Source: Paraspadella gotoi | Lineage: Eukaryota > Animalia > Chaetognatha | DNA length: 64,000 nucleotides | Direction of reading: 5' to 3' | Assembly (NCBI GenBank): GCA_051294375.1 | Contig: CM119264.1 | Span: 1,741,930-1,805,929 of the forward strand | Shown here: positions 17,279-50,165 of the stretch, one piece after another | Layout of the letters: every line of letters begins with the position of its first letter | Numbering within the stretch: the first letter of the stretch is position 1 | Notes under the pieces: model-generated | Databases searched by the model: none | What the model saw: the letters and a program-made list of their open reading frames with translations, nothing else | What the model was told of the DNA's origin: nothing | Position numbers and translations under genes: made by a program

Positions 17279-17928
17279 TCTATTTTCTCTTTTCTCTCAT
17301 TGATCATCATTTATTCATTCCACTTTATTCTTAATTTCTTTTCTTCTCGACTTCTATTTTTTTTACTCGCTTTCTTTTTTATTCCTCCACCTACTTAATC
17401 TATTTTTAACACCGCCTTTCGAACCACCTCGTCCACCCACTAATCCCACTCTTGTCCCCCCCTTATCCTCCCACTCTATCCTCCACTATATTTTCCGTTG
17501 ATCCTTCCTCTTTTTGTCTTTATTTTCCTAAAGCACCTCGTTTCATCTTAAATTCGGAATTAAAGCAGTTTTGAGGATTAATTATTAAGTCAAAGGTGAA
17601 GGATTAGGATTAAAGATTAAGTTACTGATTTGGGTTAAAAATGAGGATTAAGGATTAAGTTACTGATTTGGGTTCAGGATTAGCATTAAAAATTAATTTT
17701 TAGTATTGGGCGTTAGGCTCAGAGATTAAGTTCAAGGTTTTGGGTTAGGGTTGAGTATTTGGTTAGGGATTAGAGTTGGGAATTAAAGTTAAAGATTAAT
17801 TTTTAGGTTTGGCAATAGATTAAAGTTAAAGACCTATCTTAAAACAAATTGAGGGGAGATTAAGTCTGCTCGAAATGGGCCACTTTTGGAATTGTTTTGT
17901 TGTTTCAACCCCAAAATCTCGCCACCAG

Positions 17929-18141
17929 GTGGCCAAAATTCGTGCTTCTCGACGATCAAGATTCACAAAATTCACTCATGAAGAAAATGAGCGAATTTCC
18001 GGTGAAAATCAACAACAAAGGAGACAACACGATGATGGCCGAGGTCACCACGGTTACCGCCTGCAATATGGACACCACTTACTTTCCAAACGACATCCAA
18101 ACTTGCAGAATCAAGATCGCTCTCATTCCGTTGAGCATTCG
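17929..18141 (+). CDS. Cys-loop LGIC gene 2 exon containing the Cys-loop signature
   Basis: cag|..WPKFVLLDDQDSQNSLMKKMSEFPVKINNKGDNTMMAEVTTVTA-CNMDTTYFPNDIQTC-RIKIALIPLSIR|gtgag. The C-x13-C loop with FPxDxQxC is the family signature. Confidence 0.92.
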
Positions 18142-18486
18142 GTGAGGAAGAGGGGAAGGAGGAGGAGGAGGAGGAGGAGGAGAAGGAGGATGATGATTGG
18201 TGATGATTGGTGCGTGATTGATGATAATGATGATCATAATTGGTGATGATGATATTAATTATGATAAATCAATTATTGATCGAGTAAACTGATTGATTGA
18301 TTGATTAATAATCGTTTTAATGATTATTTGATTGCCGGTTATTAAAAATTATTGATTGTTTGATTGTATGAATAATCGATTGACTAGATAAGATTGATTT
18401 CATTCCATTGATCGATTATTCGATTTTGATTGATTGCTTAATTGTATCGATTGATTGATCTAACTCCCCCGCCCCCTCTATTTCAG

Positions 18487-18649: not shown

Positions 18650-21600
18650 GTTTTTGTTGTTTTTTTTTGGGAGGGAGGTTTGTTTTGGTTTTGTTTCGTT
18701 ATTTACTTTTTCTTTCTGTTTTGTTATTTTGTTTGAATTTTCTTTTCTTTTCTTTATTTATTTGTTTTTGTTCTGTTGTTTATTTTTTTTTTTAAATTGT
18801 TTGGTTTTTATATTTTGTCTTTTTGTTTTATTTTTGTCTTGTTTTGTTTAGTTTTGCTTTTCTTTTCTTCTGATTTTCTTTTCTTTTCTTTAGTTTAATA
18901 GCGAGATAGATTTCGTAATTGCCGCCTGTTTTAGTTATCGATTATATTTATTTATTTCATGGAATTAGNNNNNNNNNNNNNNNNNNNNNNNNNAATTTCC
19001 TGCGAAGGGAATCTCTTTTATTTTTATGTCTCAAAAATTACACTTCTCGTCACGTTCATTCTAAAATTTATTTCTTACTGTTTTTTGTCTAAATATCAAT
19101 CAGGCTCTGTTGATTTAAATTATTTGAAACAAGATAGATGCTGATTCTTGTTTCGTCTTCTTCACTATTTTCAATAATAATCTTTTATTTGTACTTATCC
19201 ATCCCTTTCTGTACCAAAATAGCAATAATTTCTTTTAACATATCTAATAATAGATAATCATAACGTATATACACCAAAAAACATTACTGAAATCTTTTTT
19301 CTCTGTAAAAAGATGATGAACTTTAAAAATAGCTGAATAGATTTATCAACCAGTATAGATATTAATTAAATTTTGGATTCAAATTACTATTATTCAATGT
19401 AAAAGAGGGTTTAAAATAAAATCACAGCGTTAAAAATGAATATAAATAAAAACACACATGCAACGTTTTTCCAATGATAAAAATGTATATAATAAAATAA
19501 CACTGATAAAACGACTTTCTAGAAGTACCAAAAAGTGAATAACACACACGTTTAACCATACAGCGCAGAACGAATATTTCCAAAGAGATCAACTAACTTA
19601 AAACCGAGCGAAGAAAACACGCTTTTTTGTTCCAATGTAAAAGAGATAAAAAGAAGTTCTCTCTAAGGGTTACTTAGAGAACAACTAATATCAATCCAAA
19701 CCACTTAAAAAAACTGACTTATTACCTAACTAAAATTCGGCTATTAATCTGAAATGGGGCGCTTGGGATAAATATGGCCGTTAAGACACCCTATTAAAAT
19801 TATGTCTATTTTTTTTAAGCATGATTTAACGGAGTTAAGAACTCGTAAAGTATCAAAAAAACGTCGATAAGAGGGAATCAAATATTTCTAGAGGCATAGT
19901 CATGTCCTCCATGTTGTAAGATAAATCCGTAATCTGCTTCGCGAGTTTTATTTTAGCAAACAACAACAACATTGGAAATTATCGTTACCTATTTGCTTAC
20001 TCTAAAATAAGAAAAAAAGCAAAAATACATGATTAGCACGTAATAATACTTACTGTAATTGATAGTTAAACTTTTTTTTTTCCCGATTGCTCCCATTAAA
20101 ATAGCACCTTCCGTAAATAACTTGAATATGAGGGCCGCGATACTGCTGATGATTTATACCTCGACCTCTATCTCTCATCATCGTCTTTTCCCTAACGACC
20201 ACATGATCCTCAGACCTCCGGTCATTGAATCAGTCGTCCCGGCCTTCAATGTATTTGTTAATTATTACTATTTTTAATCAAAAAAATTGATGTCTTTTCT
20301 TTTAAAAAACCCCATTTTTTCTAGGGTCCTTGTGATACTTCACACTTTGAATCGATCACGGCAGACCATAAACCCGATCGGAAACTAAAAAGTAATACCA
20401 AAAACTACTCGTAGCAATTATCGACTAACTGTCAATATCAAGAAACACGTTTTCGCTAGACGCAAAGACGAAAATGTCTATGCACGTTCATACGTGTATG
20501 AAAATCATATGAAAAAATTTCAAAGAATCGAAAACAAGGCATCATTGCGGAGGCGCAGCGCAATGTGAGTTCAAAACGTTCTGCACTGGTTGCATACTTC
20601 CTCATCCTTTCTTGCGTGATGGATTATTTTTATTCTCCGGCGACGACGCCGTGGCAAAGCGCCGCCAAGGACACGCCCGCGAAACTCGCGCGAGGATATC
20701 ATTCTCCTTTAACCCTCGGCTCATGGATTTGGACTTGAAACAAGTTTTTGTAACGTCAACAGTCGACTCTTTTGGATCAAAATAAGCTTTTTAGCCAAAC
20801 CATGGATACGCGGCCAGTGTGGTAAGATGCACCGCGCTCGCGGCTTACGCACGTGCTTTCAGAGACCGCGACTTAGGGGGGGATGAGGCCTGAGTTACCG
20901 CGAGACATCGACTACTCTCTCTCCATTTCCCCTCACGGCCACATGAGCCGGTCAGACTCCGGTCCATTGGTCTCGTCGTCTCCCGGGCTGTTCAAACGGA
21001 GCTTTCTAGAATTCGCCGTGTGGCCGGAGCCACGAGGAGACCATCTGAATACCGTCTGTCAACCCTCTGAAGACTGTTTTCACGGACAAGGTTAATTATT
21101 GTCTCTTTTCTCGCTAGTATGAACATAGGTTTGAATAGTGAATTTATATTTCTCTCGCTTATAATATATTGTTCTCTCTCGCCTAATCCTTCCTTATGTC
21201 GTGGCTACTTCACCACCACAATTGAAGAATCATCTAGTTCTGTAAAGACAAAATTTGATAAGTCCATTTTTTTTACTTTTTAAATCTTTTTTAATGATGC
21301 AAATAGGGTAAAACCGCCTGAAAATCAATTAGCAAAGAGTAAAAGATACGAGCTTTCAAATCAGGTTCATTAGAGAAAATTGACGCCTTAAAAATGCATA
21401 AAGTGAAGTAATTGAATCTAGGCAAAAATGTACTATATCCTTGCCCCATTTGAGGATATTTATTCTGTACGAGAGGTTTTTGAGTGGATGGAAAGTAAGA
21501 GGATGAAGTACAGTTTATAGTTCATCAGTACTCGGTGTCAAGATTTTGAAATGATCACAAAAAAGATAATTTTATAGATCGAGGGTTTTTTTAGTAATGA

Positions 21601-24600
21601 GGGATTTATCTAAGTTGAAGGTAAACATATGTCGGTACTATAAGCAATAGCTTAATTTTAAATGTTATCATGTTCATTTGGAGTTTTAAGTTGTCGCTAA
21701 CGATATGCGAGACTCTATAAGTTACTCTTGTTATTGGATCGGTTCGTAGTACTGCATAATTATACTTGTCCGTTATCTACTTCAATTCAGTTTCTTTAAT
21801 TGCTATAAATCTAATTTTAATAAAAATGTAATACTGAGATCATTCTACGATTTGCAAACAGACGTGGGATATAAGGTATTATTACATGCTTTTGTTTACA
21901 GTTGTTAAGTACAAGTGATCCATATATATAGAGTCTGATAGAGACTTTTTTTCATATATACTCTGTGTGAGTTGTTCTCATAAAATTGCTTGTAAGGACA
22001 ACTGAAATCTAGTTGTAGATGCTTGTTAGTATGTATCGTCGCTTTGCCTTAAGCAGAAGTCGGTGATAAATATTATATTAATGTGTTTGATTAAAACATT
22101 ATAAAAATAAAAAAATTAAGATTTTAGATGAAAATTTGCAAAATTACTTGTTTCAACCATATTTTTTAGTTTTCTATTTTGAATATATTTTAATAATTTT
22201 ATGAACGGTTTATAGTTTCTAATACTATATCAATTTTTTCAAACATATATTGGGCTTTCTTGTTTTTAAAAATGTTTTATGTTTTCTAATAAATTCAATT
22301 TCTTTTGACTGATAGAGCTTACTAGCAAAGTTAGATTAGAAGGTTTATTAATTAGCAACTTGATGTTGTTGCATTGTTGTTAGCAATTTTTTTTTTTATT
22401 TTTAGAGATTTCATATATTTTGTAATTAACAAATTATTAATTAATAATGATGATGAGTAATTATAAAATTTTTATCAATAAAAGTTGTTTATTTGGAATT
22501 TGTAGTAACTAACCTTTATCATAAACTTTTTAAATCTTTATCAAGAATCCATTTTTAATAATTGTAAATTTCTTTAAAAAAATTTTAAGCTATTTCTTTT
22601 TATATTATGTGAATATTTAAATGCTTCATGCATGAGGAAAATTTGAAGTTTTCATCAAATTTAAATGCATGAGAGTCAATTTGGTTGTAAAAATGACAAA
22701 AGACTTTTACTTGCCGACTTTTTGTCATATTGTAAATGTAAAAATTCTGGCCGACTTATTGGCTTAAGAAGTCACAATAAGAAGTCATGGCGAATAACAT
22801 TTTGAAGACTTGCGGCGGATCTTGTTTTTCCATTTTACTTTAAATCTACTAGGTTTCCATAAGTTTATGGTTTACAGGACCTAGTCACCCGACATCTCAT
22901 TTAACGCACCTCTTTCGCCGGATCAACATGCCGCGTGTCGAAAAAGTCGCGCTGCAGCGGGGTGGAGTTGGGATGTGTAACGCGGAGACGCCGGCAGACA
23001 AGCGTGAGATCGAGAACATGACGATGGAGATTGACGGCAAAAGCCAGGACGAGGTGTCGGCGAGACGCTCCCGTGCGCGCGAATCTGCTGGATTAGAGGG
23101 AGAAATGGCGGGGAAAGAAAATTTGCGATTGGAAAATGTCCGAGATGAGGGCGCGAGATTGTGGCGAGGTGATTTTGGTTTGTTGCAGGATTTTTTTAGA
23201 AGATTGTCCAGTTTGAGCCAATTATACATGTAAGGGCAATTTAGTACCGACACGCTTGCAATTCTGCTAGTTTGCAGAACTTCGGATTGTGACTGTAGTT
23301 CGGCCGCTACAGGTCGGGTAGACAGTCACGTCCGCTGTAGTAGGCATTTGACACGTATGGGTCGCGGGAAATCCAAGCACCGGGTAGGTGGGAAGAAAGA
23401 ATTGTCTCGCTCATTACGCGCAACCAGGGGCTTGCCCTATGGATTTCAGTCAGAGTGCGTGAATGTGTCGGCGATCAGAGGTATAGGTTTAAAGGGTTAC
23501 GGCTTAGGATGAGAAGTTCATGGGTAAGAGGATTTATCGTTAGGGATTAGGATTAAGTATCAGGTGGAGGGATTTTATCGTTAGGGAATTAGGATTGAAG
23601 TTGCAGGTTAGGGATTATCATTAGGAGTAGATTAAGTTCGATAAGGGGGATTTATGGTTTTGGGAGTTAGGTGTAAGTTCGCTGGCTGTTAGGGGATTTT
23701 ATCATTAGGGATTAGGTTAGTTGCGGCGTAAGGGAATCGTTGCAATGCAATTAAAGTCGGAGGGATTTTTCAGGGATTGGTCAAGTTCTGGTGTATGAAG
23801 CATCTTATTTTGGAAGTGGATAGTTTGTTCTAGTTGTTTGTAAATATTAAAAAAGAGTTAAAATTAAGTTAGAGATAAAACAAACACAGAAATGGGGACG
23901 CTCCATCGGAGGAAAAAGAGAGCCCAACGTGCGGCAACCTCACCCGCCCAAAAGAGGCGTCGTGCCCAACTGAGATTCTTGGATCAGTAAAAATCTCCAT
24001 CCTGCTTCCTTTCTCCTCAGTCCATGTCGATACGTGTCGTCCTGCGGCTGTCTGGCTTCCTAGCTGGTCGTCCCGGCGGAGCCCTGAAGGCAGCGAGCGG
24101 CGCGTGGGATGCTCGTTTGCTCCAGCCGAGCGGCGGAACGAAGCATGGTGCCAACGGAAAGAGAAGGGACCTATGCGTTTGTTCCGAAAGGCAAATGGCG
24201 GACAAGAGGTGCGAAAAAAGGAGGGTTCGCCGTAGGTCCACGCATGTGGGTTCTTTGTAGGGGAGCCAGATGTGTCGCTGAAATTTTGGGGTGGGTATGG
24301 GGTATGATGGGGTAAATCTTAAAGTGAGAATCTAGATGTTTGGAGTAAGGCTCTAGGAGTCGGCTGAAGAGCTTACCTATCTGTATGCTTTCTGTGCCGC
24401 GCCTGGCAGCAGGCAATTGAATGGGTCCTTTTCCTGGTGGGAACCGAGGCTTCCGGGGTAAGTTTTTACTTTTGCTTGATCGTTCTGTCCGCCCCCTTGG
24501 GTCCGTGGGCTTCGGAAAAGGTCAACGTGAGCCAGCGCGGTGTGACTATTGTATGGGTCCTATGAGCGCGACAGGTGAAGCTTAGCCGTAATGCCGAAGA

Positions 24601-27088
24601 ACGATAAAACAATAGAAAGTTAGCCCCTTTAATTATTTAATAAGACCGTGCTAGTCGATCCTTGCCTCCTTGGGTCAGTTCAGGTTAAGATATTAACATA
24701 CTAATAAGGAAAATGTTAGCTTAAGCTGTTTAATGCGAGACTTGAAGTTATCACGCAGGAAGTTTTATAAGCCACGGGATATTAAATGAATATTTTTGGA
24801 GTCTTATGATCACGGATGTTGTAATTTGGACGGTTGGTGGATGATAGAAATAGACTGAAAATGCTTGTCTCAAGTTGCTTTAGGCAACAAGCTTAACTAC
24901 TGGAGAAAGTATTAGCCTCGCGTGCGAGCTAAGATTTTTTTTTAAGGTTGGAGAAAAGTGAACGGCAATTTAGAATGGAGGGAAAACGGAGAGAGAGGAG
25001 AGAGAGAGAGGTAGATAAGAGAGAATGAAGGAAAATTCATATCGGAATCAATAAAGACGCAACGACACGATATGACGTTTTTTCCAATCCTGACTAGGCC
25101 TGTACGCACATGTCATCCACCATGCCGTGCCTTATCCCAGAAAGTCAGTGGTGTGACCCTTCCTCCCTGTTCAGCGCATTCTCCTTGCTCACTTAACGCT
25201 GTTCAACGGCCAACATAGTGGACTGCCTATGGTGAGAGGACCATAGTAAATGACTGAACCGATCCGTGTTCTGCGCGCTTTCTGTGGTGAGAAATAGAGT
25301 AAATTCCATATATAACTATACTTTGACACTATCTTTTGTCTCTTCTTCTGTCTCTCTGCTCTTACGTCTGCACTCTCTCATCTCTGCTCAGTCGTTCTTC
25401 TGCTCTCTGTCCTAGTCTCAATCTAGGCGTAGAGGCAAAAATAGCAGAATCTCTCGCACTCAGTGATCCATAATAGTCGTTTGCCTTTTACTGTTCCTTT
25501 AATTCCCAAGGAGTAACTTCAGTTCTTATTCTATTTTTTTTTTAAGGCCGGGAACAAATTTTCTGTTTCTTTTGGAAATATCATCGCGGCGCCCGGGCTT
25601 TAAAATGCTAACATGTAAAGAACATGAGACAAAAACAATAAAACCTGAAACAATGAAAAAGTGTTCATCTACAAGATCAACTCTTTTTAAAGTCGTTTTG
25701 GAAAAACAAAAAATAGAGAGCGTGTTAAAGTTTAGCAACCGCGAGTAGAATCAGCTGGTTTAGCTTTATTTTATATTCAAGTGATATGGACGGTAATTAC
25801 TGAGTTGAGTACGATAGTGATCAAAATTGTATCATATCGGCAACGCCTCTCTTCAGCGTCTGTTTCGTGTGGCAGAGAGGCAATCTTATTTCGACTATTC
25901 GGAAAAAAAGTTACGACCCGCTGAGTGTATGCTAGATTTCACACGAAGTTTGAAGGCAAAGTAGATATTGTCTCTGGATCTGGCCCACATTAGTATTCAT
26001 GGTGTAATCGTTAATGTAATATGTCTAATTAATAACTATAATTATTACAGTGATAATGTATAATTCAATTATATGATATTAAATTCATGTTATGAAATGA
26101 GTAAAATAGAATAAATAGTGGGTCCAGTAAATTGTTCTTATGTTAATCAGGTTAAGTGGAATATAGACAGGTTTATCTTTTGTCAATTTGTAATGACTTA
26201 TTTCCAACCTCTGGAAATGATTCAGCCATTCGGAGTAACTGATTTGTCCAGCTTAATAACACAACGTACGGGTCGCGGTGTACGGCAACACGGGCGGCTG
26301 GTGTACAGTAGGCGTGGCGAGTGGCAGATTGAGTCGGTGTTGGGAGTGTGCCAAGTGTGGGGATGCCGGAATACGTTATGGGCGTGAGGACTCGCAATTT
26401 AATGCAATGCAGTCCTGTCCAATCACGAGTAATTTGGTAGTTTTTTGCTAAGATGGGTACGGACGGACGGACGGACGGACGGACATTGGTTTTTATGCAT
26501 AATTTATCAATAATGTTCTGACATGAGTTTATTAAGTAATGCCGACAAGATTGAGGGGCGGACCCAGGACGGCCCGACAAAGGGAATATACGAGTCGGGA
26601 TATGCTAATAAGCAGATCCGATTAAAATAGGCTTGGAAAATAAATAAGGAATTAAATTCGCCAGAAGGGAAAAGAAGCGTAAAGAATTTATAGAGCAAAA
26701 AAAAAATTGAGAGACGAAATAATTCGGAAACGAAGAGGGTCAATAACATTAGAGGCTGAAACATGTACGGGCACTCCGATAGGACAGGGTGAACAATGCC
26801 AATGAACTAGACGAAGAAACACGAATAAGACGAAAGAACATAAGCTAACGACAAACATTAACGCACGAAAAACCACGAGTGAACAAACGAATGAACCAAA
26901 AGAACGAATGAACGATCTAACGAACAAATGAACAAACACGAACGAAACGAAAGGAAAAGAAAAAAAAATAAAGATCATAAGGTGGACTAAAATCGCACCA
27001 ACGTTTCATCAGCGGCCATTGGTGGCCGGAGGCAAGTCATTCGCCTCCCAACCCCAAAAGGTCGGGGTTTTAGCTCGGTGGGTCGCCT

Positions 27089-27167
27089 AGCAGTTTAGAG
27101 GGACGGGGCGCTTAACCCGCCTCGTAACTCGTTGTTACAGAGCCTGATCCGAAGCTCAGGGACTGCT
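27089..27167 (+). ncRNA. Putative permuted (P5-type) twister ribozyme, family A 5' LTR
   Basis: AGCAGU..GAGG GA CGGG GCGC U UAA CCC GC [P3] CUGA UCCGAAGC UCAG GG ACUGCU. P5, P4, T1 (CGGG/UCCG) and T2 (GC/GC) pairings are present. Confidence 0.7.
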
Positions 27168-27520
27168 TATATTGAACGGTTTCTGTCATTAACACACATC
27201 AATAATCACTGTCTCTTCATTGGTGAGCCCGACTTACGAACACAACGCAACAACAACACTTTCAAGGCAACATGACTCAACCCTGGCGAATGCACTTTCC
27301 GCCCACAACACATCAGGCGACAGTGCCTCAACTTGGTGACGAACTTTCCACCAACAACAACAATTCACTGAAGAGACGCAACAGACTTCTACCTATGGGA
27401 GGGGGATGTATGGTGACTAAAATCCACCAACCGTTCATTCAGCGGGCCATTGGTGCCGGAGGCAAGTCATATCGCCTCCGCAAGCCCAAAGATCCGGGGT
27501 TCTAGTCCCGCTGGCCGCCT

Positions 27521-27599
27521 AGCAGTTTAGAGGGACGGGGCGCTTAACCCGCCTGTAACTTAGGTGTTACCAGCCATGATCCCAAGCTCAGGGACTGCT
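27521..27599 (+). ncRNA. Putative permuted twister ribozyme, family A 3' LTR
   Basis: Same motif as 27089-27167 with minor differences (loop UCCCAAGC, as in canonical twister). Confidence 0.7.
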
Positions 27600-27771
27600 T
27601 ATATTGAACGGTTTCTGTCATTAACATCATATCAAGTAATCACTGTCTCTTCAGTCACTACATTAAACTAACTAAACCAACTCAACTAACTTAACTTAAC
27701 TTAACTTAACTTAATGAAAAGAATGAACGTACGAACACGAACGAGCGAACGACACATTGACTATTAAGTTA

Positions 27772-27897
27772 CCTGGAGTAGAATATAATTATAGTAGTGA
27801 TGAGAATGAAAAAGTGTACATGGGATGCACGAGCGCGATCATTAACGGCATGTCCGTTTCGTTTTATGCTGACTGTCAAAGGGTAGGCGTAGTTCGT
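27772..27897 (-). CDS. LGIC gene 2 pre-M1/M1 exon, inverted copy at the fold-back centre (its 3' end also appears on + at 27898-27918)
   Basis: The minus strand reads, with indels, NYAY.LTVSIKRNG.PLMIALV.PMY.F.ILITTI.YILPP|gtaac. The plus strand 'tttatattctacctccag|gtaac' gives YILPP-G, which joins the next exon as LPPESGER. Confidence 0.7.
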
Positions 27898-29150
27898 TAA
27901 TTTATATTCTACCTCCAGGTAACTTAATAGTCAATGTATCGTTCGTTCGTTCGTTCGTTCGTTCGTTCTTTTATTAAGTTAAGTTAAGTTAAATTAACTT
28001 AGTGAGTTCGTTTAGTTAGTTTAATGTAGTGACTTAATTTTTGTTTCTCTTTTCCTTTTCGTTCGTGTTTGTTCGTTTGTTTGTATTTGTTCGTTAGATC
28101 GTTCATTCGTTCGTGTTTGTTCATTAGTTTGTTCACTCGTGAGTTTGTTCGTTGATTTATGTTTGTTCGTTAGTTTGTTCGTTCTTGTTTGTTTGTTCGT
28201 TCTTAGTTCGTGTTTCTTCGTTAGTTCGTCCGTTTGAACCTCTTTTTATTATTTCCTCTCTCAATTTTTTTTCGCCTCTAATCATTTACCTTCTTTTTCC
28301 TTCTGGCGAATTTAATTCCTTATTTATTTTCAACCTATTTAATCGGATCTGCTTATTAGCAGATCCCGACTCTATAATTTACTTTGTCGGTCCGTTGGTC
28401 CGCCCCCTCAATCATGTCGGGCATTCACTTATATCATGTCAGAACATTGAATTATGATAAATTATGCAAAAAAAAACGATTTCCATCCGTCTGTCTGTCA
28501 AATTAATTAATTAATTAATTAATTACCGATAATGATCGTGGGTAGATCCGACATTGTTTGCTCAAACTACTTACGGGTCGTAATTTTTTCCGAATGAAAT
28601 AGAATTGCCTCTCGAAACGAAAAGACGCGAGGAGCGTTGCCCGATATAATTAATTGATTATCGACTAATTAGTAATTAGTATCATTAAATAAAATAAATG
28701 TATGTTAATGTATGAATATTTTCATATTGAATGGATTTAAATGTGCAAGAAACCAGCTGAATTTTTTTACTCGCGTGTAAATTTTAAAACTATTATTTTT
28801 TTTTTCAAAAACCGATTTTAAAAAGAGTTGACTTGTAGATAACATTTTCATTGTTCATTTTATTTTTGTCTCATGTTTTACATGTTACATTTTAAAGCCG
28901 GGGCCGGAGTTTCAAAAGAAAAATTTCCGCATAAAAAAAATAGAAAAACTGAATTTACTCCTTGGGAATTAAAGAAAGTAAAAGGCAAAGATTTATGGCT
29001 GAGGAGAGATTTGTATTTTTGCCTCACGCCTAGATTGAGACAGAGAGAGAGAGAGAAGAGAGAAGAGAGAGAGAGTGAGATAGAGAGAGAGAGAGAGAGA
29101 CAAAGATAGTGTCAAAGTATTGATATGGAATTTTACTTATTCTCACACAG

Positions 29151-29221
29151 AAAGCGGAGAACGGATCGGTTCAGCTATTACTATGGTTCTCACCATGGCA
29201 GTCACTATGTTGGCCGTGAAG
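29151..29221 (+). CDS. Cys-loop LGIC gene 2, M2 pore-helix exon
   Basis: cacag|(E)SGERIGSAITMVLTMAVTMLAVK|gtaag, with -1' Glu, 6' Thr and 9' Leu. Confidence 0.88.
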
Positions 29222-30369
29222 GTAAGGGAGAAAGAGAATGTGAAAGGGGAGGAAGGGTTCACCACTGACTTTCTGGGTAAGGCAGGTGGATGAATGGGTA
29301 AGGCAGTAGGATGAAAAACGTCATTTACTGTTTGAGTTTTATTGATTTTCCGATATGAATTTTCCTTCATTCTCTCTTATTCTCTCTCTCTCTCTCTCTC
29401 TCTNNNNNNNNNNNNNNNNNNNNNNNNNNNNNNNNNNNNNNNNNNNNNNNNNNNNNNNNNNNNNNNNNNNNNNNNNNNNNNNNNNNNNNNNNNNNNNNNN
29501 NNNNNNNNNNNNNNNNNNNNNNNNNNNNNNNNNNNNNNNNNNNNNNNNNNNNNNNNNNNNNNNNNNNNNNNNNNNNNNNNNNNNNNNNNNNNNNNNNNNN
29601 NNNNNNNNNNNNNNNNNNNNNNNNNNNNNNNNNNNNNNNNNNNNNNNNNNNNNNNNNNNNNNNNNNNNNNNNNNNNNNNNNNNNNNNNNNNNNNNNNNNN
29701 NNNNNNNNNNNNNNNNNNNNNNNNNNNNNNNNNNNNNNNNNNNNNNNNNNNNNNNNNNNNNNNNNNNNNNNNNNNNNNNNNNNNNNNNNNNNNNNNNNNN
29801 NNNNNNNNNNNNNNNNNNNNNNNNNNNNNNNNNNNNNNNNNNNNNNNNNNNNNNNNNNNNNNNNNNNNNNNNNNNNNNNNNNNNNNNNNNNNNNNNNNNN
29901 NNNNNNNNNNNNNNNNNNNNNNNNNNNNNNNNNNNNNNNNNNNNNNNNNNNNNNNNNNNNNNNNNNNNNNNNNNNNNNNNNNNNNNNNNNNNNNNNNNNN
30001 NNNNNNNNNNNNNNNNNNNNNNNNNNNNNNNNNNNNNNNNNNNNNNNNNNNNNNNNNNNNNNNNNNNNNNNNNNNNNNNNNNNNNNNNNNNNNNNNNNNN
30101 NNNNNNNNNNNNNNNNNNNNNNNNNNNNNNNNNNNNNNNNNNNNNNNNNNNNNNNNNNNNNNNNNNNNNNNNNNNNNNNNNNNNNNNNNNNNNNNNNNNN
30201 NNNNNNNNNNNNNNNNNNNNNNNNNNNNNNNNNNNNNNNNNNNNNNNNNNNNNNNNNNNNNNNNNNNNNNNNNNNNNNNNNNNNNNNNNNNNNNNNNNNN
30301 NNNNNNNNNNNNNNNNNNNNNNNNNNNNNNNNNNNNNNNNNNNNNNNNNNNNNNNNNNNNNNNNNNNNN

Positions 30370-30446
30370 TGGACTCGAGAGAAGGAAGAGGAGGAGATTT
30401 TTTTATGTCCCAAGAATCTCAGTTGGACGACGCGCTCTTTTGGCGG
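30370..30446 (+). CDS. LGIC gene 2, 3' part of intracellular-loop/MA exon (5' part in gap)
   Basis: DSREGRGGDFFMSQESQLDDALFWR|gtgag, equivalent to NFWQ|gt in gene 1. Confidence 0.7.
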
Positions 30447-30584
30447 GTGAGGTTGCCGCGTGGGCTCTCTTTTTCGAGAGCGCCCCATTTCTGTTTGTTT
30501 TATCTCTAATTTAATTTTAATCTTAATATTTAAACTAAATATATTCCTAAAATTATGAACAAATCTTTAACCCTAATCCCTAAA

Positions 30585-30850
30585 AATAAATCCCTAACCA
30601 GAACTTAATCCTGATCCCTAATGATAAATCCCTTACCTGAACTTAATCCTAATCCCTAATGATAAATCCCTAGCCAGAACTTAATCTAATCCCAAACGAT
30701 AAATCCCTTATCGAACTTAATCCTAATCCCTAATGATAAATCCCTAACCTGAACTTAATCCTAATCCCTAACGATAAATCCCTCACCTGAACTTAATCCT
30801 AATCCCTAACGATAAATCCCTTACCTGAACTTTATCCTAAGCCGTAACCC
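30585..30850. repeat. ~38-bp minisatellite (cctgaacttaatcctaatccctaatgataaatccctaa), about 7 copies
   Basis: Tandem units are visible; mirrored at ~23500-23780. Confidence 0.8.
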
Positions 30851-30862
30851 TTAAACCTATAT

Positions 30863-31086
30863 TGTGGCGACACATTCACCACCTGACTGAATCCATAAGC
30901 GAAGCCACGGTGGCGTAAGAGCGAGAATTCTTTCTTCCCACCTACCGGTCTTGGGTTCGCGACCCATTGGTGTCAATGCTACTAAGCGGGACGTGACGTC
31001 TACCCCACCTGTAGTGGCCGACTACAGTCAAATCCGAAGTTCTGAAACTAGCAAATTGCAAGCGTGTGGTACTAAATTGCCTTAAT
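30863..31086 (+). mobile_element. Probable solo LTR, family D, with a degenerate twister-like motif (30977-31053)
   Basis: Starts TG. A/B-box-like 'ggtggcgtaag' and 'gggttcgcgaccc', then UGCUA..GCGG GA CGUG ACGU C UAC CCC AC CUGUAG..CUACAG U CAAA UCCGAAGU UCUG..UAGCA. The 3' end is inferred from the inverted copy ('gcccttaca'). Confidence 0.5.
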
Positions 31087-31210
31087 TATTTGGCTAACTG
31101 ACATCTTCTAAAAAAATCCTGAACAAACCAAAACCCCTCGCCACAATCTCCCCCTCATTCCGAATTTCAATCGAAATTCTTTTTTCCCGCCATTCTCCCC
31201 TCTAATCCAG

Positions 31211-31339
31211 AGATTCGCGCGGGGTCTCGACATCGTCTGCTTTTGCCTCAATCTCATCGTCAGTTTCGTCTCCGTTGTCTGGGCCGTCGTTAACATCAAC
31301 TCCCCCGTGAGGCCGACTTTTCGACACGGAGCAAGTTGA
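31211..31339 (+). CDS. Cys-loop LGIC gene 2 terminal exon (M4)
   Basis: ccag|RFARGLDIVCFCLNLIVSFVSVVWAVVNINSPVRPTFRHGAS*; paralogous to gene 1 M4. Confidence 0.82.
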   Translation, partial: RFARGLDIVCFCLNLIVSFVSVVWAVVNINSPVRPTFRHGAS

Positions 31340-32979
31340 TCCGGGCCGAAGGAGTGGTTAATTGAGTGGTTGACTGGTTGTAACCATAACATGGAAACCT
31401 AGTAGATTTAAATAAATGGAAAAACAAGATCCGGCAAGTTCAAAATGTTTCGCCATGACTCTTATGTGACTTCTTAAGCAATAAGTCGGGCCAGAATTTT
31501 ACATTTTTTACAATATGAAAAAGTCGGCAGTAAAAGTCTTTTGTCTTTTACAACCAAATTGACTTATGATGTTAAATTTTGATGAAATTAATTTTCCTCA
31601 TGCATGGAAGCATTTTAATATTTAATAATATAAAAGAAATGCTTAAAATTTTTTTAAAGAAATTTAAATTATTAAAAATGGATTCTGATAAAGATTAAAA
31701 AGTTAGATAAAGGTTAGTACTACAAATTCCAAAAAACTTTTATGATAAAATTTGATAATTATCATCATCATTTATTAATTAATTAATTAATTTTGTTAAT
31801 TTTCATAAACAAATCAAGTTGTAATAATAACCTTAATCTAACTTTAGAAGCTCTATCAGTCAAAAAAAATTGAATTATTAGATAAATAAAATATTTTTAA
31901 AAAAGAAAGCAATATATGTTTGAATAAATGATATAGATTAAATACTAAAACCTTCATAAAATTATTAAAATATTAAAATAGAAAAATAAAAAATAGTGAA
32001 ACAAGTAATTGCAAATTTTCATAAATCTTAATTTTTTATTTTTATAATGTTTAATAAACACATTATTAATATTTATACCGAACTTTTGTTAAGCAAAGGA
32101 CATAATACTAACAAGCATCTAATAGATTTTCAGTTGTCTTTAAAGAATTTATGAAAACTAACAAGAGTTATATGAAAAAAGCCTTAATATTTTATGATCA
32201 CTTGTCTTAACAACTGTAAAACAAAGCATGTAATAATACCTTATCCCACGTCTGTTTACAAACTAGAATGACTCAGTATTACATTTTATAATTAGATTTA
32301 TAAGCATATAAAACTTGTGAAGTAGAACAGACAATAAATACAGACTGACGAACCGTCCAAAAAAGTAACTTATAGAGTTTCTCCGCGAGTAATCGTAGCA
32401 CAACTTAAAACCTCCAAATAGCATGATAACATGAAAGTAATCATGCTTAAGTACTGAATTATGTTATTTACCTTAGAAATCCTCATACTAAAAAACTGAT
32501 CTAAAAATTATTTTTGTCCATCAAAACTTGAACCATGTACTGTATAAACTGTACTTCAGCTCATCTCTTACTTTCCATCGCTCAAAACCCGTAAGAATAA
32601 CTAACCTAATGGGAAGGATAGTAAATTTTTTGTACAGAGTTTGTATGATCTTTTCATTTATGATTTTTTTTTAACAATTTTCTTAATGAACTTGATTATG
32701 AAGTGTCTTACTCTTTGCTAATTGATTTTCAGGCTTTTTACCCTATTTGTATAAAAAAAATTAAAAGTAAAAAAAATGACTATTTTTGTTTTACAGGAAT
32801 AATTTATTTGTGGAAGACCACGACATAAGGAGTAGGGAGAGAGACACATATATTATAAGCGAGAGAAAACATAGCAAATATGTTCAATACAGGAAAAGAG
32901 ACAATAATGTAACGTGAACAGTTCGAGGGTTGAAACGGTTGTGTCTCTCGTGGCTACGGCCACGACGGAAGAAACCCGT

Positions 32980-33678
32980 TGAAGCCCGGGACGACGAGAC
33001 CAATGACCTGAGGTCTGAGGTCATGTGGTCGTTGAGGGAAAAGAGAGAGAGAGTCGAGGTAACTCGGCCTCATCCCCCCCTTAAGTCGCGTCTCTGGAAA
33101 GAGGCGCGGCTGACCACACTGGCGTCGAATCCATGGTTTGCTAAAAGCTATTTTTGATCCAAAGAGTCGATGTTGACGTACAAAATTGTTCAAGTCCTAA
33201 TCCATGAGCCGAGGGATTAAAGGAGAATGATATCCTCGGCAGTTTCGGCGGCGTCTGCAGCGTCTGCGGCGTTTGCCACGGCGTCGTCGCCGTCCATCAC
33301 GCAGTGGAGTTGCAGCAGGAACTTGAACACATTGCGCTGGCCTTTCCGCAGATGCCTTGTTTTTCGATTCCTTGGAAATTTTTTTTCATATGATTTCATA
33401 CACGTAAGAACGTGCATAGACATTTCGTCTTTGCGTCTAGGAAAACGTCGATATTGACAGAGACGTTGCTCGTTGGTAATACTTTTTTGTTCCGTCGGTT
33501 TTGTCGTGAGATAAACGTGAAGAAGGATAGAAAAAGGGGGTAAAGAAAAGAAAATTTTGATAAAAGAATAATTAAAGTATTGAAGGCCGGGACGACGAGA
33601 CCAATGACCGGAGGTCTGAGGTCATGTGGTCGTTGAGGGAAAAGAGAGAGAGAGAGAGTCGAGGTAACTCGGGCCTCA
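32980..33678 (-). mobile_element. Second type of TRIM-like element: ~95-bp direct repeats (32980-33072, 33581-33678) with TG..CA ends and a PPT
   Basis: On -, each repeat reads tgaggcc..cttca. 'aaggggggga' precedes the 3' repeat. No clear PBS or TSD seen. Confidence 0.5.
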
Positions 33679-34262
33679 TATTCAAGTTTATTACGAGTGC
33701 TGCAGCAATGGAAAAAAAAAGTTTAAATATCAATATAGTTTATTAGCTAATCAGATTAAGATTAAGCGTAAAAAAATGTTTTGTTTGTAAAATAAAACTC
33801 GCAAGCAGATTACGATTATTTAAACATGAGGACAATGAATGCTCTAGAAAATATTTGATTCTCTTATCGACTTTTTTGATACTTTACGAGTCTTAACTCC
33901 TTAAATCATGCTTAAAAAATAGACATAATTTTAATAGGTGTCTTAACGGCCATATTTTCCCAAAGCGCCCCATTTCAGATTAAATACCGAATTTAGTTAG
34001 GTAATTAAGTCAGTTTTTAAGTGGTTTGGATAATAATTAGTCTCTAATTAACAAGACTCTCGGAATAACAAATTGAGTTTATAATTCAATACTGGATTTA
34101 AACCTTATTGTATTGAATCCAAATTTAAAATACTATTAAGTGATAAACTATTCAGCAATAATGTTATAGATATATTAGAAGTAAAATATTCTTTGACAAA
34201 GGGTGACAAATAAGTTTTGAATATAGAAGCAACATCAGCATCATTATTTGTTTCAAATTAAT

Positions 34263-36536: not shown

Positions 36537-36642
36537 TTTGATTTGTGAGCAGGTCGCCTTTAGAGGAAGAAATTATTGCGAAAGAAAAAAAAGAAAATTA
36601 GTTAAGAAAAGTTTGCAGAGTCATCTCATGCACTGTTTAATT

Positions 36643-37129: not shown

Positions 37130-37340
37130 CATCCATCCAATCACGAGTAATTGGAGGTTTTTGCTAAGGGGGGACAGACTGACAGACAAACGGACATAAT
37201 TTTTTTTGCATAATTTATCATAATTCGATGTTCTTCCATGATATAAGTGAATGCCCGACAAGGCTGGGGGGGCAGAACGACGGACCGACAAAGTGAGTAT
37301 AGAGCCGGAATCTGCTGTAAGCATATTCGGCTAAAAATAA
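37130..37340. repeat. Dispersed repeat, also at ~26415-26640 and (inverted) ~28330-28500
   Basis: Shared 'ccaatcacgagtaatt..tttgctaag..gcataatttatca..atgcc(c)gaca'. Confidence 0.6.
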
Positions 37341-38545: not shown

Positions 38546-38747
38546 TGAATTATTAGATAAATAAAACATTTTTAAAAAAGAAAGCAATATATATTTGTTT
38601 AGATAATATAGATTAAATACTAAATCCTTCATAAAATATAAAAATAGAAAATAGTGAAACAAGTAATTTGCAAATTTTCATAGATTAAATAGTAACATTA
38701 ATATTCTGGTGGTCCTATCACCACAGATCGATTAAAGCTGTTTTCTT

Positions 38748-38822
38748 TCGCAGCGACTCAGTGGCTCAGTGGACTAATGCACCATCCCAATGTGCGTCCC
38801 TGGTTCGAGCCCTGAGGTTGTC
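38748..38822 (+). promoter_or_regulatory. tRNA-like Pol III internal promoter (A box TGGCTCAGTGG, B box GGTTCGAGCC) in the LTR; repeated at ~39205-39275
   Basis: Near-consensus A and B boxes, bracketed by a ctcag/ctgag acceptor-like stem. Confidence 0.75.
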
Positions 38823-38900
38823 ATGTAGAAAGTGGGATGGACGGGTAACCCGCCTGTAGGCATGGGCCTACTGCCAGATCCTAAGCTCTGGACTACATGA
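38821..38900 (+). ncRNA. Putative permuted twister ribozyme, family B 5' LTR
   Basis: UCAUGUAG AAA GUGG GA UGGA CGG G UAA CCC GC CU GUAGGC-AUGG-GCCUAC UG C CAGA UCCUAAGC UCUG GA CUACAUGA. Confidence 0.7.
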
Positions 38901-39274
38901 ACATGCTGTCTCGCTGTCGCCACGAGGTGACACCGCTGCGGGTGTGGCGCCCTGTAAAACCAGCCTCTTTAATGGTGAGCCCGACGTGATCCGAACACGC
39001 AACCAACCGGGCATGATAATACTCCTCTGCCCTTGATGTGGTTTGAGCTACACAGCTGCCACTCAAAGCAAGGCCACCAGAATAAAGAGAGGTTCAGCGG
39101 AGAGACATGCGCTTCATCCCTGCTTCGTACTCTCATATGCGAGAGTCCTGGGGGCGGCTGTCTGGTGGTCCTATCACCACAGATCGATTAAAGCTGTTTC
39201 GTTCGCAGCGCCTCAGTGGCTCAGTGGACTAATGCACCATCCAATGTGCGTCCCTGGTTCGAGCCCTGAGGTTG

Positions 39275-39355
39275 TCATGTAGAAAGTGGGATGGACCGGG
39301 TAACCCGCCTGTAGGCATGGGCCTACTGCCAGATCCAAAGCTCTGGACTACATGA
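39275..39355 (+). ncRNA. Putative permuted twister ribozyme, family B 3' LTR
   Basis: Same fold with a perfect T1 (UGGA/UCCA), P4 CAGA/UCUG, 8-bp P5, 6-bp P3 and P1 = CCGG. Confidence 0.75.
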
Positions 39356-42245
39356 ACATGCTGTCTCGCTGTCGCCACGAGGTGACACCGCTGCGGGTGT
39401 GGCGCCCTGTAAAACCAGCCTCTTTAATATGATAAAATATAAAAAAAAGGAAATTGATAAAGATGTCACGCCTTGCCTCTCTTTTTAAGGTCGTTCGGCC
39501 AATTCTAAGGTCTGTTTTTTGGTCCCTCATATTTTTCATAGGCCACTCGTATTCCGAAAAAAATTTTTGATATGAAGATAGTTTCGTTTTAAAACTCATT
39601 GAATGTGTTTCGTCCGGAGGAAACTCTGTCTTTACGAGTTTCTGGGGAATTTTCCTTAAATAAATGTTTAAATATACAAAGTGACTTTTCTCTCATGAAC
39701 TCACGTTAAGCAATTCGTTATGGGGGAAAGTTCAAACTTTAAACGTTCGATCTCGCGCTGGAATAGAAAATATTAAAAGATTTTCTACAGAAATAGTGAA
39801 ACATCTCTAATATCTCATTGTCCAGAAGACAACATTATATTATTAAATGTGAAATAAATAATAGTTAAATCTAATGCTTATGTGAAATTTACATTATTTT
39901 CAAAGGTAGGTCACCTCAATAGGTATTTTATTAGCGTTCTGTCAGCGACTGAGATAAATGTAATATTCAAAACTGACAGGCATTGCAAAGTCACCATTAA
40001 ATTGCAGAGAAAGCAATTGTCTATTGTTAATAGTTTTTGTAAAAACTTTTATAAAAAAATCTGAAACTGCAATCGATGTTGCAGTCACTCAAGATTATAA
40101 TTAAGTTTCTTTGTGTTGTTAATAGAATTTTCCAAGATTTTTGTCTTTTCTCTGCATTTTAACGATTCAAAAAAGAAAAGGTTTCTATTGCTAATTACAT
40201 TCAGACGTCATAATATTTTTGATGAATAACAACGCAATTTACATTGTAAGCTGTTGTTACAATTTAAGAAACTATCAAAAAGAGTAGCCATTAGTATTGA
40301 TGATCACTTTTTTATAAGCAATATTTAAGTCTTAAAGAGTGGCTTGTCCTCACACTAGTGTAGCAAGTTGATCTAGAAAAAAAAATTTTTCAGTTTCCTT
40401 GCAATCTATTACTTCAGAACAGGTGATAGCTTTGCTACCATTGAGCTTTTCTAATGATTAATGGCGTTTAAAAAAACTTTGATCTCCAACTCTTCCAGGA
40501 ACTTGGAATCAGTTTATCCCACCTCTGTCCCGTCCTCACATTCACCACTCCAACATTAACTCCACTTTCCTCTCATTCAATCTTCCTTCTTCGCTCTTCC
40601 CTACCTAATACAACAAAGTCGACCAATGTACTTTTATCTCTTCCCTTTCCTATTTCCCTCCCACTCTCAAAAACACAATTCCACTCCCAACAATGGCTTT
40701 TCCTCACAACAGCGATGAAAATGACGATGGAAAAGACAAGAAATCCAGATGGTGACAATTATGACCATATCGATTATGAAAATGAAAAATGATGTTTTGA
40801 GGAATGATTAATAATATTAATACTACTGATTGATAGATTTATTTACTAGTTATCTATTAATTCTGGATTAATTAATCAATTGGTTTATTTACTTTATTAA
40901 TTGATTGAATGAATAATTGAGCCACTTTTTTCTTCTAGCAGCATTGCCGACCCGACCATGAGCTACAAAACAAGACGATGAGACGATATTTTGGCAACGT
41001 GAGCTTAGGCGGCCAACATTGTTACTGACATAGTGGCCGGGACAATGGTCAATGGAGTGAAGGCGGGGCGAGTGAAACAAGCTCAGATTTCATATTCTTT
41101 GTACTCATTTTACTATTTTGTCTCTTTATATGTGTTTTATTCGTTTACAACAATTAGTTGAAACAGTACATTCAAAAGGGCATACAGCATTACAGATATG
41201 GCCACTGATGATGATATTGAAATATATGTTCTTTAACTGAGGTCTATTAAGGCTGACTCGGTCTACGGTAAGTAAAAACGAGGTAGACGGCGGAAGAAAG
41301 GGAATATATATCGTTAGCGACTAGAAAAACCGGTGAATGAGGGAGTAAAAAAGGCTGAATGGGTGAGGACCGGTCAGAGGGAAAGAGCGTGAATGAAAAC
41401 CTCAACCCTGAACTCGATCCTGGATCTCCGGGAGGATGAAAAGAAATGAAGAGGAAACGGTGCAAGCTGACGAAGCCTATCGGCTCTTTCTGATGTCAAA
41501 ATATTCCAAAATATTCTGATACATTACCAGTCTACAAAGTATCAATTGAAATGAATCAAATATCAATTGAATTTCTGGTCATGTGAACGCTTTTATAGGA
41601 CTGCCTAAGTATAACACAACACTGAAGGTCTTGTTGTACCTAACTGAACTAAAAAAATTATAGACGCCTTTCTTGCTATTATTAGGGTGATATATTAGTT
41701 ATCTAAGTGATTTTAAGTGGCAGATTTAGCGAAAAAAAAAACTGACTGGTAAAATTAAAGTATAATAAATTTAAACAAATTGAATTTTAGGCAAACTTAT
41801 ACGCATTAAAAATAATTTAATAATTATTATTCAGGAAAAGGATACGAAAAGTTGTTAAATTAGTTCAACAAAAATATTCGCTTTTTTTTAAATCCAACTT
41901 TAAAAATATAAGTAAAAAGTGTCAATTAATATGAAAATTGCAAAATTACTTCTTTCACTATTTTAAGTCTTAGATTTATAGATTTTTTAATATTTATTAA
42001 AATTATTTATTACAAATTCTATTTTTTATTATTATTACTATTTTTTATTATTTAATATTATATAATTTTGGTCATTGCATTGGCTACCAATAAATAATAG
42101 AATTACGAGAATATTGAGAACGACATGGTGCTTGAGAGAGAGCTCACACATTCTCCATCGTGTTCATTATGTGAAAATTCTTCAAAGTTTTGAATTATGA
42201 ATAGATACAATTACAATATTATCAAAAGTTTTTATTCAAATCAAT

Positions 42246-46761: not shown

Positions 46762-47015
46762 TGTGTATATGGCGCTAAGTGGGGCTGAAGAGTGCTATCC
46801 GCAACTTCTTTAAGCGCCTCCAGCAGCCATGAAACGGGCCCTGGGCTTTGAACCAGGCTTGAGGGTTTGCCACGCCCCCAAGGCGGCTTACGGCCGTCCT
46901 CACGCTTCCCGCAGGGTAGGTACCGGGTTGGGATTGAACCCAGCTTTACTCAATGAGCCACTGGGTCACGACTGTAGGTGTCATGCGGGGTGAACCTAGG
47001 CAAAGCCCGACTACA
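46762..47015 (-). mobile_element. Solo LTR, family C, with TG..CA ends, GATT TSD, Pol III boxes and a twister-like motif (46834-46912)
   Basis: gatt|tgtgta..ctaca|gatt. On -: tggctcattg, ggttcaatccc, then GCGGG AA GCGU GA GGAC GGCC G UAA GCC GC CUUGGGG..CCUCAAG C CUGG UUCAAAGC CCAG GG CCCGU. Confidence 0.8.
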
Positions 47016-49895: not shown

Positions 49896-50165
49896 GAACA
49901 CATTTAACGCTTTCTCCACACTTTTACCTCTTGAACTGGGAAGACTCTTTCCCTTTAATAGTTTTCCGGACCTTTTTTTAAAAAAACTAATAACAATCGA
50001 CAAATTTTTTGTTACTATCGCCTCATTTTCACTGAACCCGTCGACTCTTCTATATTTGGATACTTTATCCGGACAAGCAGGGTTCCGGTTTGCCAGTCTT
50101 AACTGTATTTATTGTATTCTACGAAGCATCTACTTACCTTTCAAACCAAACACATGCGGGAAATC

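What the first reader, a model, noticed from the sequence alone, without database searches (positions are those of the whole stretch)
26978..27653. Second, sequence-divergent family with the same architecture, seen as a filled versus empty site
Seen: family A LTRs share little primary sequence with family B but keep the same order: tRNA-like head, twister fold, ..ctcttca end, tggtgagcccgac PBS, PPT. Pairings covary: P4 CUGA/UCAG vs CAGA/UCUG; T1 CGGG/UCCG vs UGGA/UCCA; P5 AGCAGU/ACUGCU vs CAUGUAG/CUACAUG; different P3 hairpins. The inverted copy of the same locus (~28030) lacks the element and has a single GTCA, whereas the filled site has g(a)tca..gtca. Inference: a recent, probably heterozygous integrase-type insertion into the M1-M2 intron of the channel gene. 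Predicted monomer ~432 nt (27113/4 to 27545/6).
Basis: partly seen in the sequence, partly recalled or inferred. Interest (0 to 1): 0.82.

Follow-up and report, generated by a model that had tools for sequence, protein, structure and literature searches.

The report
Animal mini-retrotransposon carrying twister ribozymes
A 676-base, gene-less jumping element in an animal genome carries in each end repeat a tRNA-like promoter piece followed by a predicted self-cutting twister RNA, so it would likely be copied through a small RNA circle, a design I found described only in plants and only with a different ribozyme.

Summary
26978-27653 is a non-coding miniature LTR retrotransposon: two ~243-bp LTRs, a tRNA-Trp primer site, a polypurine tract and a 4-bp target duplication. 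An inverted copy of the locus lacks it and has a single GTCA. Each LTR holds a tRNA-like head followed by a P5-permuted twister fold without P1. Rfam misses the fold, but all 6 shared P5 pairs change on both sides between families A and B, and both pseudoknots covary once further copies in the window are added. Public DNA contigs show family A is a high-copy repeat. The closest known kinds are Helenus (tRNA-headed TRIMs; no ribozyme reported) and plant hammerhead LTR retrozymes; I found the combination in no paper searched. Likely mechanism (inferred): Pol III transcription, cleavage in both LTRs, ligation to a ~430-nt circle, and copying by a tRNA-Trp-primed Gypsy element. Corrections: family B ends CTCTTTA; the element lies antisense to the channel gene; the inverted copy is probably an assembly fold-back of two haplotypes, so heterozygosity is plausible but not shown. 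Cleavage, expression and the autonomous partner are untested.

The parts
26973..26977 (+). left target-site duplication, GATCA (GTCA with one extra letter, probably long-read noise)
26978..27219 (+). family A 5' LTR (lacks the TG that follows the purine tract at the 3' LTR)
27012..27086 (+). tRNA-like head in the 5' LTR (acceptor-like arms at 27012-27018 and 27079-27086; noisy)
   Evidence: not called by ARAGORN
27089..27167 (+). P5-permuted twister fold, P1 replaced by a 6-nt linker; predicted cut 27113/27114
   Evidence: domain table
27221..27233 (+). primer-binding site, tRNA-Trp type (12 of 13 match)
27220..27408 (+). 189-bp non-coding internal region
   Evidence: overlapping ORF 27227-27502 has no Pfam hit
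27397..27406 (+). polypurine tract
27407..27653 (+). family A 3' LTR (TG at 27407-27408; ends CTCTTCA)
27442..27518 (+). tRNA-like head in the 3' LTR, box B-like GGTTC at 27498; box A poorly matched
   Evidence: Helenus box definition
27521..27599 (+). second twister fold; predicted cut 27545/27546
27654..27657 (+). right target-site duplication GTCA
27790..27897 (.). loop and junction of the fold-back between the two arms (probable assembly join)
   Evidence: X2 contig 13 fits 27702-27897 with 189 of its 588 letters
28030..28033 (-). empty site, single GTCA
   Evidence: X1 contig 4 matches 28006-28372 with no difference
29153..29221 (+). M2-like exon of a Cys-loop channel gene (right arm); noisy copy at about 25195-25287 on the minus strand
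   Evidence: translation, alignment; M2 label is from recalled motif, no Pfam hit for this 22-aa piece
17864..18142 (+). Cys-loop ligand-binding-domain exon
   Evidence: PF02931, E 8e-9
38705..39426 (+). family B element, 722 bp: LTRs 38705-38971 and 39159/61-39426 (262 identities, 3 substitutions), boxes A and B intact, twisters 38822-38899 and 39276-39354, PBS 38973-38990, ATAT on both sides; predicted monomer 455 nt
30864..31085 (+). family C single LTR-like copy: tRNA-like head plus decayed twister at 30978-31052 (end approximate)
46831..46915 (-). family D copy: nearly intact twister fold behind box A/B-like motifs; repeat boundaries not LTR-like

Best explanation
This is a non-coding miniature LTR retrotransposon whose LTRs each carry a tRNA-like head and a predicted twister ribozyme, and it likely spreads as a retrozyme through a small RNA circle. 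Shown in the sequence: LTRs, tRNA-Trp PBS, purine tract, 4-bp duplication, filled and empty site, covarying twister fold, and a high-copy family in DNA. Inferred steps: (1) RNA polymerase III starts at the tRNA-like head of the 5' LTR and reads through the element. [quoted passage not shown] (3) P5, P2 and the pseudoknots hold the two ends together and a host ligase such as RtcB closes the circle. (4) A Gypsy-type reverse transcriptase, most plausibly CsRn1-clade (tRNA-Trp primer, 4-bp duplication), copies the circle more than once round to rebuild two LTRs, and its integrase inserts the DNA. This copy sits antisense in an intron of a Cys-loop channel gene, so its ribozyme would not cut that pre-mRNA.
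For: Twister landmarks line up with published natural twisters (table): UAA, GC, the L4 AAGC, the catalytic GA, and a P3 that begins CUGUA. Covariation A vs B. A model with nested helices only found further copies C (39 bits) and D1 (31 bits). Over 8 copies, 17 of 24 pairs change on both sides and 90% of cells pair, including the unmodelled pseudoknots: T1 2 of 3 pairs, and T2 G-C to A-U in 2 copies. P1 is dispensable and P2/P4 imperfections are tolerated in tested twisters. No run of four T on the sense strand of B; the single one in A (27068) is contradicted by contigs and by the 3' LTR. In contrast, 22 of 25 published Helenus LTRs read by eye have T4+ after the tRNA part and end within about 75 nt of box B, against 156 and 171 nt here. 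In the predicted circle P5 pairs across the junction with probability 0.5-0.6 (A) and 0.9 (B). Summed contig depth on the element is 1e5-3e5 in X1 against about 21 on single-copy intron. CsRn1-clade elements use tRNA-Trp and make 4-bp duplications.
Against: No cleavage, transcript, circle or autonomous partner was observed. Rfam gives no twister hit even at E 10. The fold departs from the consensus: no P1; the P2 5' strand is one letter short, needing a bulge; A-U replaces the 'essentially invariant' G-C that closes P4 in A, B and C (D1 keeps G-C). Many family A contigs read A at the variable T1 position of L4 (95,090 of 103,534 depth at 27583 in X2, a share biased by mapping); no matching partner change is among the listed rows, and 84 rows were hidden. 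The monomers fold only modestly better than shuffles (z -1.5 and -2.3; 50% and 65% paired), below the >70% quoted for retrozymes. The T-run test is weak (P(0) 0.05 for A, 0.81 for B). Box A of family A is poor. Copies count sequences, not independent events, the 805-868 copy duplicates 11149-11214, and alignment A4 was fitted to the nested helices.
Confidence: 0.6

Rival explanations
1. The twister is active but only trims a linear RNA. A transcript cut at one LTR only keeps a terminal repeat and retrotransposes like an ordinary TRIM; the ribozyme stands in for the Pol III terminator and no circle is needed.
For: The ribozyme occupies the place where 22 of 25 Helenus LTRs have a T-run. Monomer folding is modest. 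[quoted passage not shown]
Against: Both LTRs carry the same motif, so selective cutting needs an unexplained context effect. Double cutting leaves no terminal repeat, and its ends are the kind RtcB ligates in the Tornado system.
Confidence: 0.22
2. The twister is a passenger: a tRNA-headed SINE that already held a twister inserted into a TRIM LTR, and the fold is no longer needed.
For: Kojima proposes that Helenus arose by SINE insertion into an LTR. Family D has the same head and twister but continues past CTCTTCA in two copies and shows no target duplication. C, D2 and E are decayed.
Against: P5 differs at all 6 shared pairs between A and B yet pairs fully; heads and tails do not align above chance (scores 20 and 17 against null maxima 38 and 22) while the catalytic core is invariant. 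That pattern indicates selection on the fold after the families split.
Confidence: 0.12
3. On the filled/empty pair only: the two arms are a real inverted duplication, or the filled arm is a single somatic molecule, rather than two germline alleles joined by the assembler.
For: The arms differ by several other large indels (about 500 bp at 25940-26460, about 40 bp at 26730-26775). The window holds true paralogues (34252-36610 vs 42235-44600, 82%). No listed contig bridges the LTR into this flank.
Against: Differences are mostly insertions in the left arm (19 substitutions vs 127 gap columns around the M2 exon; 123 vs 877 further out), the profile of an unpolished long read. X2 contig 13 leaves the window sequence at the fold point. 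Depth steps in X1 (21 to 31) and X2 (162 to 281) suggest two versions of the locus.
Confidence: 0.25

Closest known systems
Helenus (TRIMp3), Kojima 2024, PMC10886601
   Same: TRIM under 1 kb, tRNA-derived sequence in the LTRs, PBS and PPT, 4-bp duplication in animals, Gypsy-type PBS including tRNA-Trp in wasps.
   Different: No ribozyme reported ('twister' 0, 'self-cleav' 0). Published LTRs end soon after a T-run; here 156-171 nt with a twister follow box B. String searches of the supplement found UCCNAAGC once, in an internal region; line breaks can hide matches.
Plant LTR retrozymes (Cervera et al. 2016, PMC4918200; review PMC7761336)
   Same: Non-coding, a ribozyme in each LTR, PBS, PPT, 4-bp duplication, filled and empty sites, proposed Ty3-Gypsy mobilisation through circles.
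   Different: Type III hammerhead, tRNA-Met PBS, ~350-bp LTRs, plants. Here: twister, tRNA-Trp PBS, tRNA-like internal promoter, animal host, circles not shown.
Metazoan non-LTR retrozymes (PMC7761336; preprint 10.64898/2026.07.22.740005)
   Same: Animal, small, non-coding, ribozyme-defined monomers.
   Different: Tandem type I hammerheads with no LTR, PBS or PPT, tied to Penelope-like elements.
Twister ribozyme, type P5 permutation (review PMC5408937; Roth et al. 2014 not held)
   Same: Strand order, UAA cleavage motif, catalytic G, P2, P3, P4, P5, T1 and T2.
   Different: No P1 hairpin, bulged 3-bp P2, A-U closing P4 in A/B/C; not detected by Rfam.
Twister T-variants of Perere-3 in Schistosoma mansoni (PMC8501958)
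   Same: Twister in an animal retroelement; very similar P3/L4 letters.
   Different: P1 type, single copy at the 5' end of an autonomous non-LTR element.
Tornado expression system (as described in 10.1101/2023.07.11.548538)
   Same: RNA flanked by ribozymes, ends held by a stem, ligated by RtcB; works best from a Pol III promoter.
   Different: Engineered; shows only that the inferred chemistry works in mammalian cells.

Membership tests
TRIM (non-autonomous miniature LTR retrotransposon) | Under 1 kb, two LTRs, no coding capacity | tested here: met
   676 bp, internal 189 bp, longest Met-ORF 77 aa; no Pfam hit for the overlapping ORF
TRIM (non-autonomous miniature LTR retrotransposon) | PBS next to the 5' LTR and PPT next to the 3' LTR | tested here: met
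   A: both present. B: PBS 17 of 18, PPT weak
TRIM (non-autonomous miniature LTR retrotransposon) | Short target-site duplication | tested here: met
   G(A)TCA/GTCA with a single GTCA at the empty site; ATAT/ATAT in B if its 5' LTR lacks TG
Helenus (TRIMp3) | tRNA-derived LTR sequence with box A (TRGCY..YGG) and box B (GGTTC) | tested here: inconclusive
   B meets both boxes; A has box B in the 3' LTR and acceptor-like arms but a poor box A; ARAGORN and Rfam call no tRNA
Helenus (TRIMp3) | 4-bp duplication and Gypsy-type tRNA 3'-end PBS in animals | tested here: met
Helenus (TRIMp3) | Transcription by RNA polymerase III | not testable with these tools
   Only indirect: boxes and scarcity of T4 runs; unvalidated for Helenus itself
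Twister ribozyme | Conserved UAA, general-base G, L4 and pseudoknots T1/T2 | tested here: met
   All present in A 5' and B 3' copies; one T1 mismatch each in A 3' and B 5'; covariation
Twister ribozyme | Stems P2 and P4 as in the consensus | tested here: inconclusive
   P4 5 bp but closed by A-U rather than G-C; P2 3 bp with a bulge whose letter varies A/U/C
Twister ribozyme | Stem P1 | tested here: not met
   Replaced by a 5-6-nt linker; P1 reported dispensable
Twister ribozyme | Score above an Rfam twister model threshold | tested here: not met
   No twister hit at E up to 10
Twister ribozyme | Site-specific self-cleavage | not testable with these tools
   Needs an in vitro assay
LTR retrozyme | Type III hammerhead in each LTR | tested here: not met
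   No hammerhead hit; a twister fold instead
LTR retrozyme | Accumulation of monomeric circular RNA | not testable with these tools
   No holder on record as RNA; contigs only
CsRn1-clade Gypsy as helper | Autonomous element in the same genome with the same PBS and 4-bp duplication | not testable with these tools
   No whole genome held; no RT or integrase domain in 80 window ORFs scanned

The most novel reading that the evidence does not exclude
The first animal LTR retrozymes, and the first built on twister: an old radiation of Pol III-driven TRIMs (at least families A, B and C in one 64-kb window) that make viroid-sized circles by a natural Tornado route and borrow a tRNA-Trp Gypsy element. 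The short linker in place of P1 may make the ribozyme work by swapping halves between the two LTRs, so that only full-length transcripts are cut and closed.
Probability: 0.45. Interest if true: 0.87.

Novelty: new variant of a known kind. Interest (0 to 1): 0.75.

Why it matters
The reviews read state that animal retrozymes lack LTRs, PBS and PPT, and that LTR retrozymes are mainly a plant, hammerhead phenomenon. A twister version in an animal would show that the retrozyme design arose again with another ribozyme and another promoter. It would give twister a defined biological role, and it offers an answer to how a Pol III-driven LTR element makes a template that reverse transcriptase can copy. 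It also points to a P1-less, P5-permuted twister class that Rfam does not see, so such elements may be overlooked in other genomes. The key tests (cleavage, RNase R) are cheap, and two divergent families give built-in controls.

Tried and rejected
Rfam and ARAGORN: no twister, hammerhead or tRNA. Whole genome: none held, so no genome-wide copy survey or helper search. Pattern scans: 9 viral and 24 metagenome loci; none of 33 has P4 of 3 bp or more and the best model score is 14 bits, so I treat them as chance; these collections hold little animal DNA. Sequencing runs: no RNA holder listed; X9 is only guessed to be RNA and also covers the intron, so it says nothing on expression. A closer read layout of the filled and empty junctions, and one of family B, could not be obtained, so both questions stay open. 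Host taxon: two protein searches found nothing and the Atlas gave only an XK-related lead; phylum not determined. M1 exon not found by motif search. A same-molecule fold-back (missed adapter) was rejected because the arms differ by the element and other large indels. Internal self-repeat of A and internal A vs B similarity do not exceed shuffles. Earlier findings: nothing on this genome or sequence. Literature: ten searches listed no twister-bearing LTR element; most subscription papers and Repbase were not searchable.

Full report
1. What is in the sequence. 26978-27653 is a 676-bp element with two direct repeats of 242 and 245 bp (222 identities, 12 substitutions, 19 gap columns) around 189 bp of non-coding DNA. 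A primer site at 27221-27233 matches the tRNA-Trp line in Kojima's supplement at 12 of 13 letters, and a purine tract at 27397-27406 precedes the second repeat. A second element, family B (38705-39426), has the same plan, LTRs 98% alike and a PBS matching at 17 of 18. The heads and tails of A and B do not align better than shuffles; only the stretch from box B through the ribozyme core does (score 61, null maximum 48). A ends CTCTTCA, B ends CTCTTTA.

2. The twister fold. Rfam finds nothing here at E up to 10. Read against the domain table of natural Schistosoma twisters, each LTR holds, in P5-permuted order: P5, P2 3' strand, GA, T1 strand, a 5-6-nt linker, UAA, P2, GC, P3, P4, L4, P4, P5. 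A pattern for this core hits the 4 LTRs and 0 of 100 shuffles. Between A and B all 6 shared P5 pairs, one P4 pair, one T1 pair and two P3 pairs change on both sides; 92.9% of 98 cells pair, against 22-49% with slid partners. A model with nested helices only found copies C (39 bits) and D1 (31 bits) and two weak duplicates (14 bits). Over these 8 copies 17 of 24 pairs change on both sides, including two T1 pairs and one T2 pair that the model did not contain. The alignment is fitted and the copies are related, so these counts are not probabilities.

3. Departures from the twister consensus. P1 is absent, P2 needs a one-letter bulge (A, U or C in different families), and A-U closes P4 where a review calls G-C essentially invariant. 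P1 is dispensable and P2/P4 imperfections were tolerated in a test of natural type-P1 twisters, whereas pseudoknot mismatches and changes to the catalytic A or G were not. A and B keep the catalytic letters. One T1 pair is broken in the A 3' LTR and the B 5' LTR as assembled; at the A site contigs read A or G, not C. Whether the A variant has a matching partner is unknown.

4. Filled and empty site. 19065-27790 and 27895-34313 are inverted copies. The right arm has a single GTCA at 28033-28030; the left has G(A)TCA, the element, GTCA. The arms differ mostly by insertions in the left arm (19 substitutions vs 127 gap columns near the M2 exon) but also by other large indels, which fits two haplotypes, one unpolished, joined head to head. 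In 4 of 9 listed runs laid on 26400-29030, an X1 contig matches 28006-28372 without difference, crossing the empty site with 24 letters shown on the far side. An X2 contig fits 27702-27897 and then leaves the window sequence. Depth steps from 21 to 31 (X1) and 162 to 281 (X2) suggest two versions of the locus. No listed contig bridges the LTR into this flank, and 29,607 pieces were not shown. Heterozygosity is therefore likely, not shown. In the left arm the channel gene runs on the minus strand, so the element is antisense to it. The gene is a Cys-loop channel (PF02931); no M1 exon was found.

5. Family size and age. Summed contig depth at 27236 is 104,841 in X1 and 353,674 in X2, against 21 and 162 on single-copy intron. 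The tool warns that this is no copy number; it does show a highly repeated family. Both LTRs of this copy share a T (27096, 27528) where 93-100% of depth in all four runs reads A, as expected if both LTRs were copied from one template.

6. Mechanism. B has intact boxes A and B; A has box B and acceptor-like arms. Neither has a credible T4 run on the sense strand up to the LTR end, a weak test. In part 7 of 11 of the Helenus supplement, 22 of 25 LTRs have T4+ after the tRNA part and all end within about 75 nt of box B (my count by eye); here a twister fills 156-171 nt. Cutting in both LTRs would give 432-nt (A) and 455-nt (B) monomers with no terminal repeat, which cannot complete ordinary strand transfer unless closed into a circle. 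P5 is predicted to pair across that junction, and RtcB ligates such ends in the Tornado system. A tRNA-Trp PBS with a 4-bp duplication points to a CsRn1-clade Gypsy helper. All of these steps are inferred. I give the circle model 0.6, linear trimming 0.22 and a passenger ribozyme 0.12.

7. Comparison and novelty. By structure this is a TRIM and most likely a Helenus-type TRIMp3, with family A's box A inconclusive. It works like a plant LTR retrozyme but is not a member, since it has no hammerhead. The Helenus paper mentions no twister or self-cleavage, and string searches of its supplement found the L4 motif UCCNAAGC once, in an internal region. Ten literature searches listed no twister-bearing LTR element. 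One review alludes to unpublished type III hammerhead elements in insects. Earlier AI notes report similar P1-less P5 twisters in Naiad elements of other genomes; I did not check them. The host phylum is undetermined.

8. What I read. PMC10886601: main text parts 1-4 of 6, a term search, supplement part 7 of 11 and four supplement searches. PMC8501958: abstract, sections 17 and 19. PMC11662667: passages and section 32. Passages only: PMC7761336, PMC6154101, PMC10085705, PMC5408937, PMC2582038, PMC4918200, 10.64898/2026.07.22.740005, 10.1101/2023.07.11.548538. Roth et al. 2014 was not held, so its type-P5 alignment, which could already contain such variants, was not seen; nor were the preprints' supplements. 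The M2 label and the long-read error profile are from recall.

9. Verdict. A real feature and a new variant joining two known kinds: a tRNA-headed TRIM with twister ribozymes in its LTRs. Interest 0.75; 0.87 if circles are shown.

Noticed in passing
30864-31085 (+), noisy duplicate near 23264-23347 (-): Single LTR-like copy of a third family with tRNA-like head and twister; T2 pair changed G-C to A-U on both sides, UAA decayed to UAC; no clean target duplication.
   Followed up: partly
46770-47015 (-), 49760-49900 (+), 50160-50326 (-): Family D: three copies with box A/B-like motifs and a twister; D1 is nearly intact and keeps the canonical G-C closing P4. Two copies share sequence beyond CTCTTCA, so this may be a SINE-like source of the LTR module.
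   Followed up: partly
11149-11214 (-) and 805-868 (-): Decayed twister-like copy lacking P3, inside a duplicated block (228-1092 vs 10579-11441); 14 bits, E 0.03 only.
   Followed up: partly
26978 and 38705: In both A and B the 5' LTR lacks the TG that begins the 3' LTR after the purine tract; noise or a real non-canonical end.
   Followed up: no
27221-27233 and 38973-38985: Both PBSs share the same one-letter difference from the honeybee tRNA-Trp line; may reflect the host tRNA.
   Followed up: no
27220-27408 in runs X5 and X9: Internal-region depth is far lower relative to the LTR in X5 (about 220 vs 16,000) and X9 than in X1 and X2; solo LTRs, other internal regions or library bias.
   Followed up: no
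26400-26660, 28336-28599, 37136-37336: Another dispersed repeat with even higher summed depth (about 1e6 in X1).
   Followed up: no
34263-36572 (-) and 42246-44605 (-): Two tandem intronless ORFs (769 aa; second split), 82% alike in DNA, XK-related lead only, no homologue found.
   Followed up: partly
53890-62750: About 9 kb satellite array of ~135-140-bp units.
   Followed up: no
19065-27790 vs 27895-34313: The fold-back spans about 8.7 kb; the left arm is insertion-rich like an unpolished long read.
   Followed up: partly
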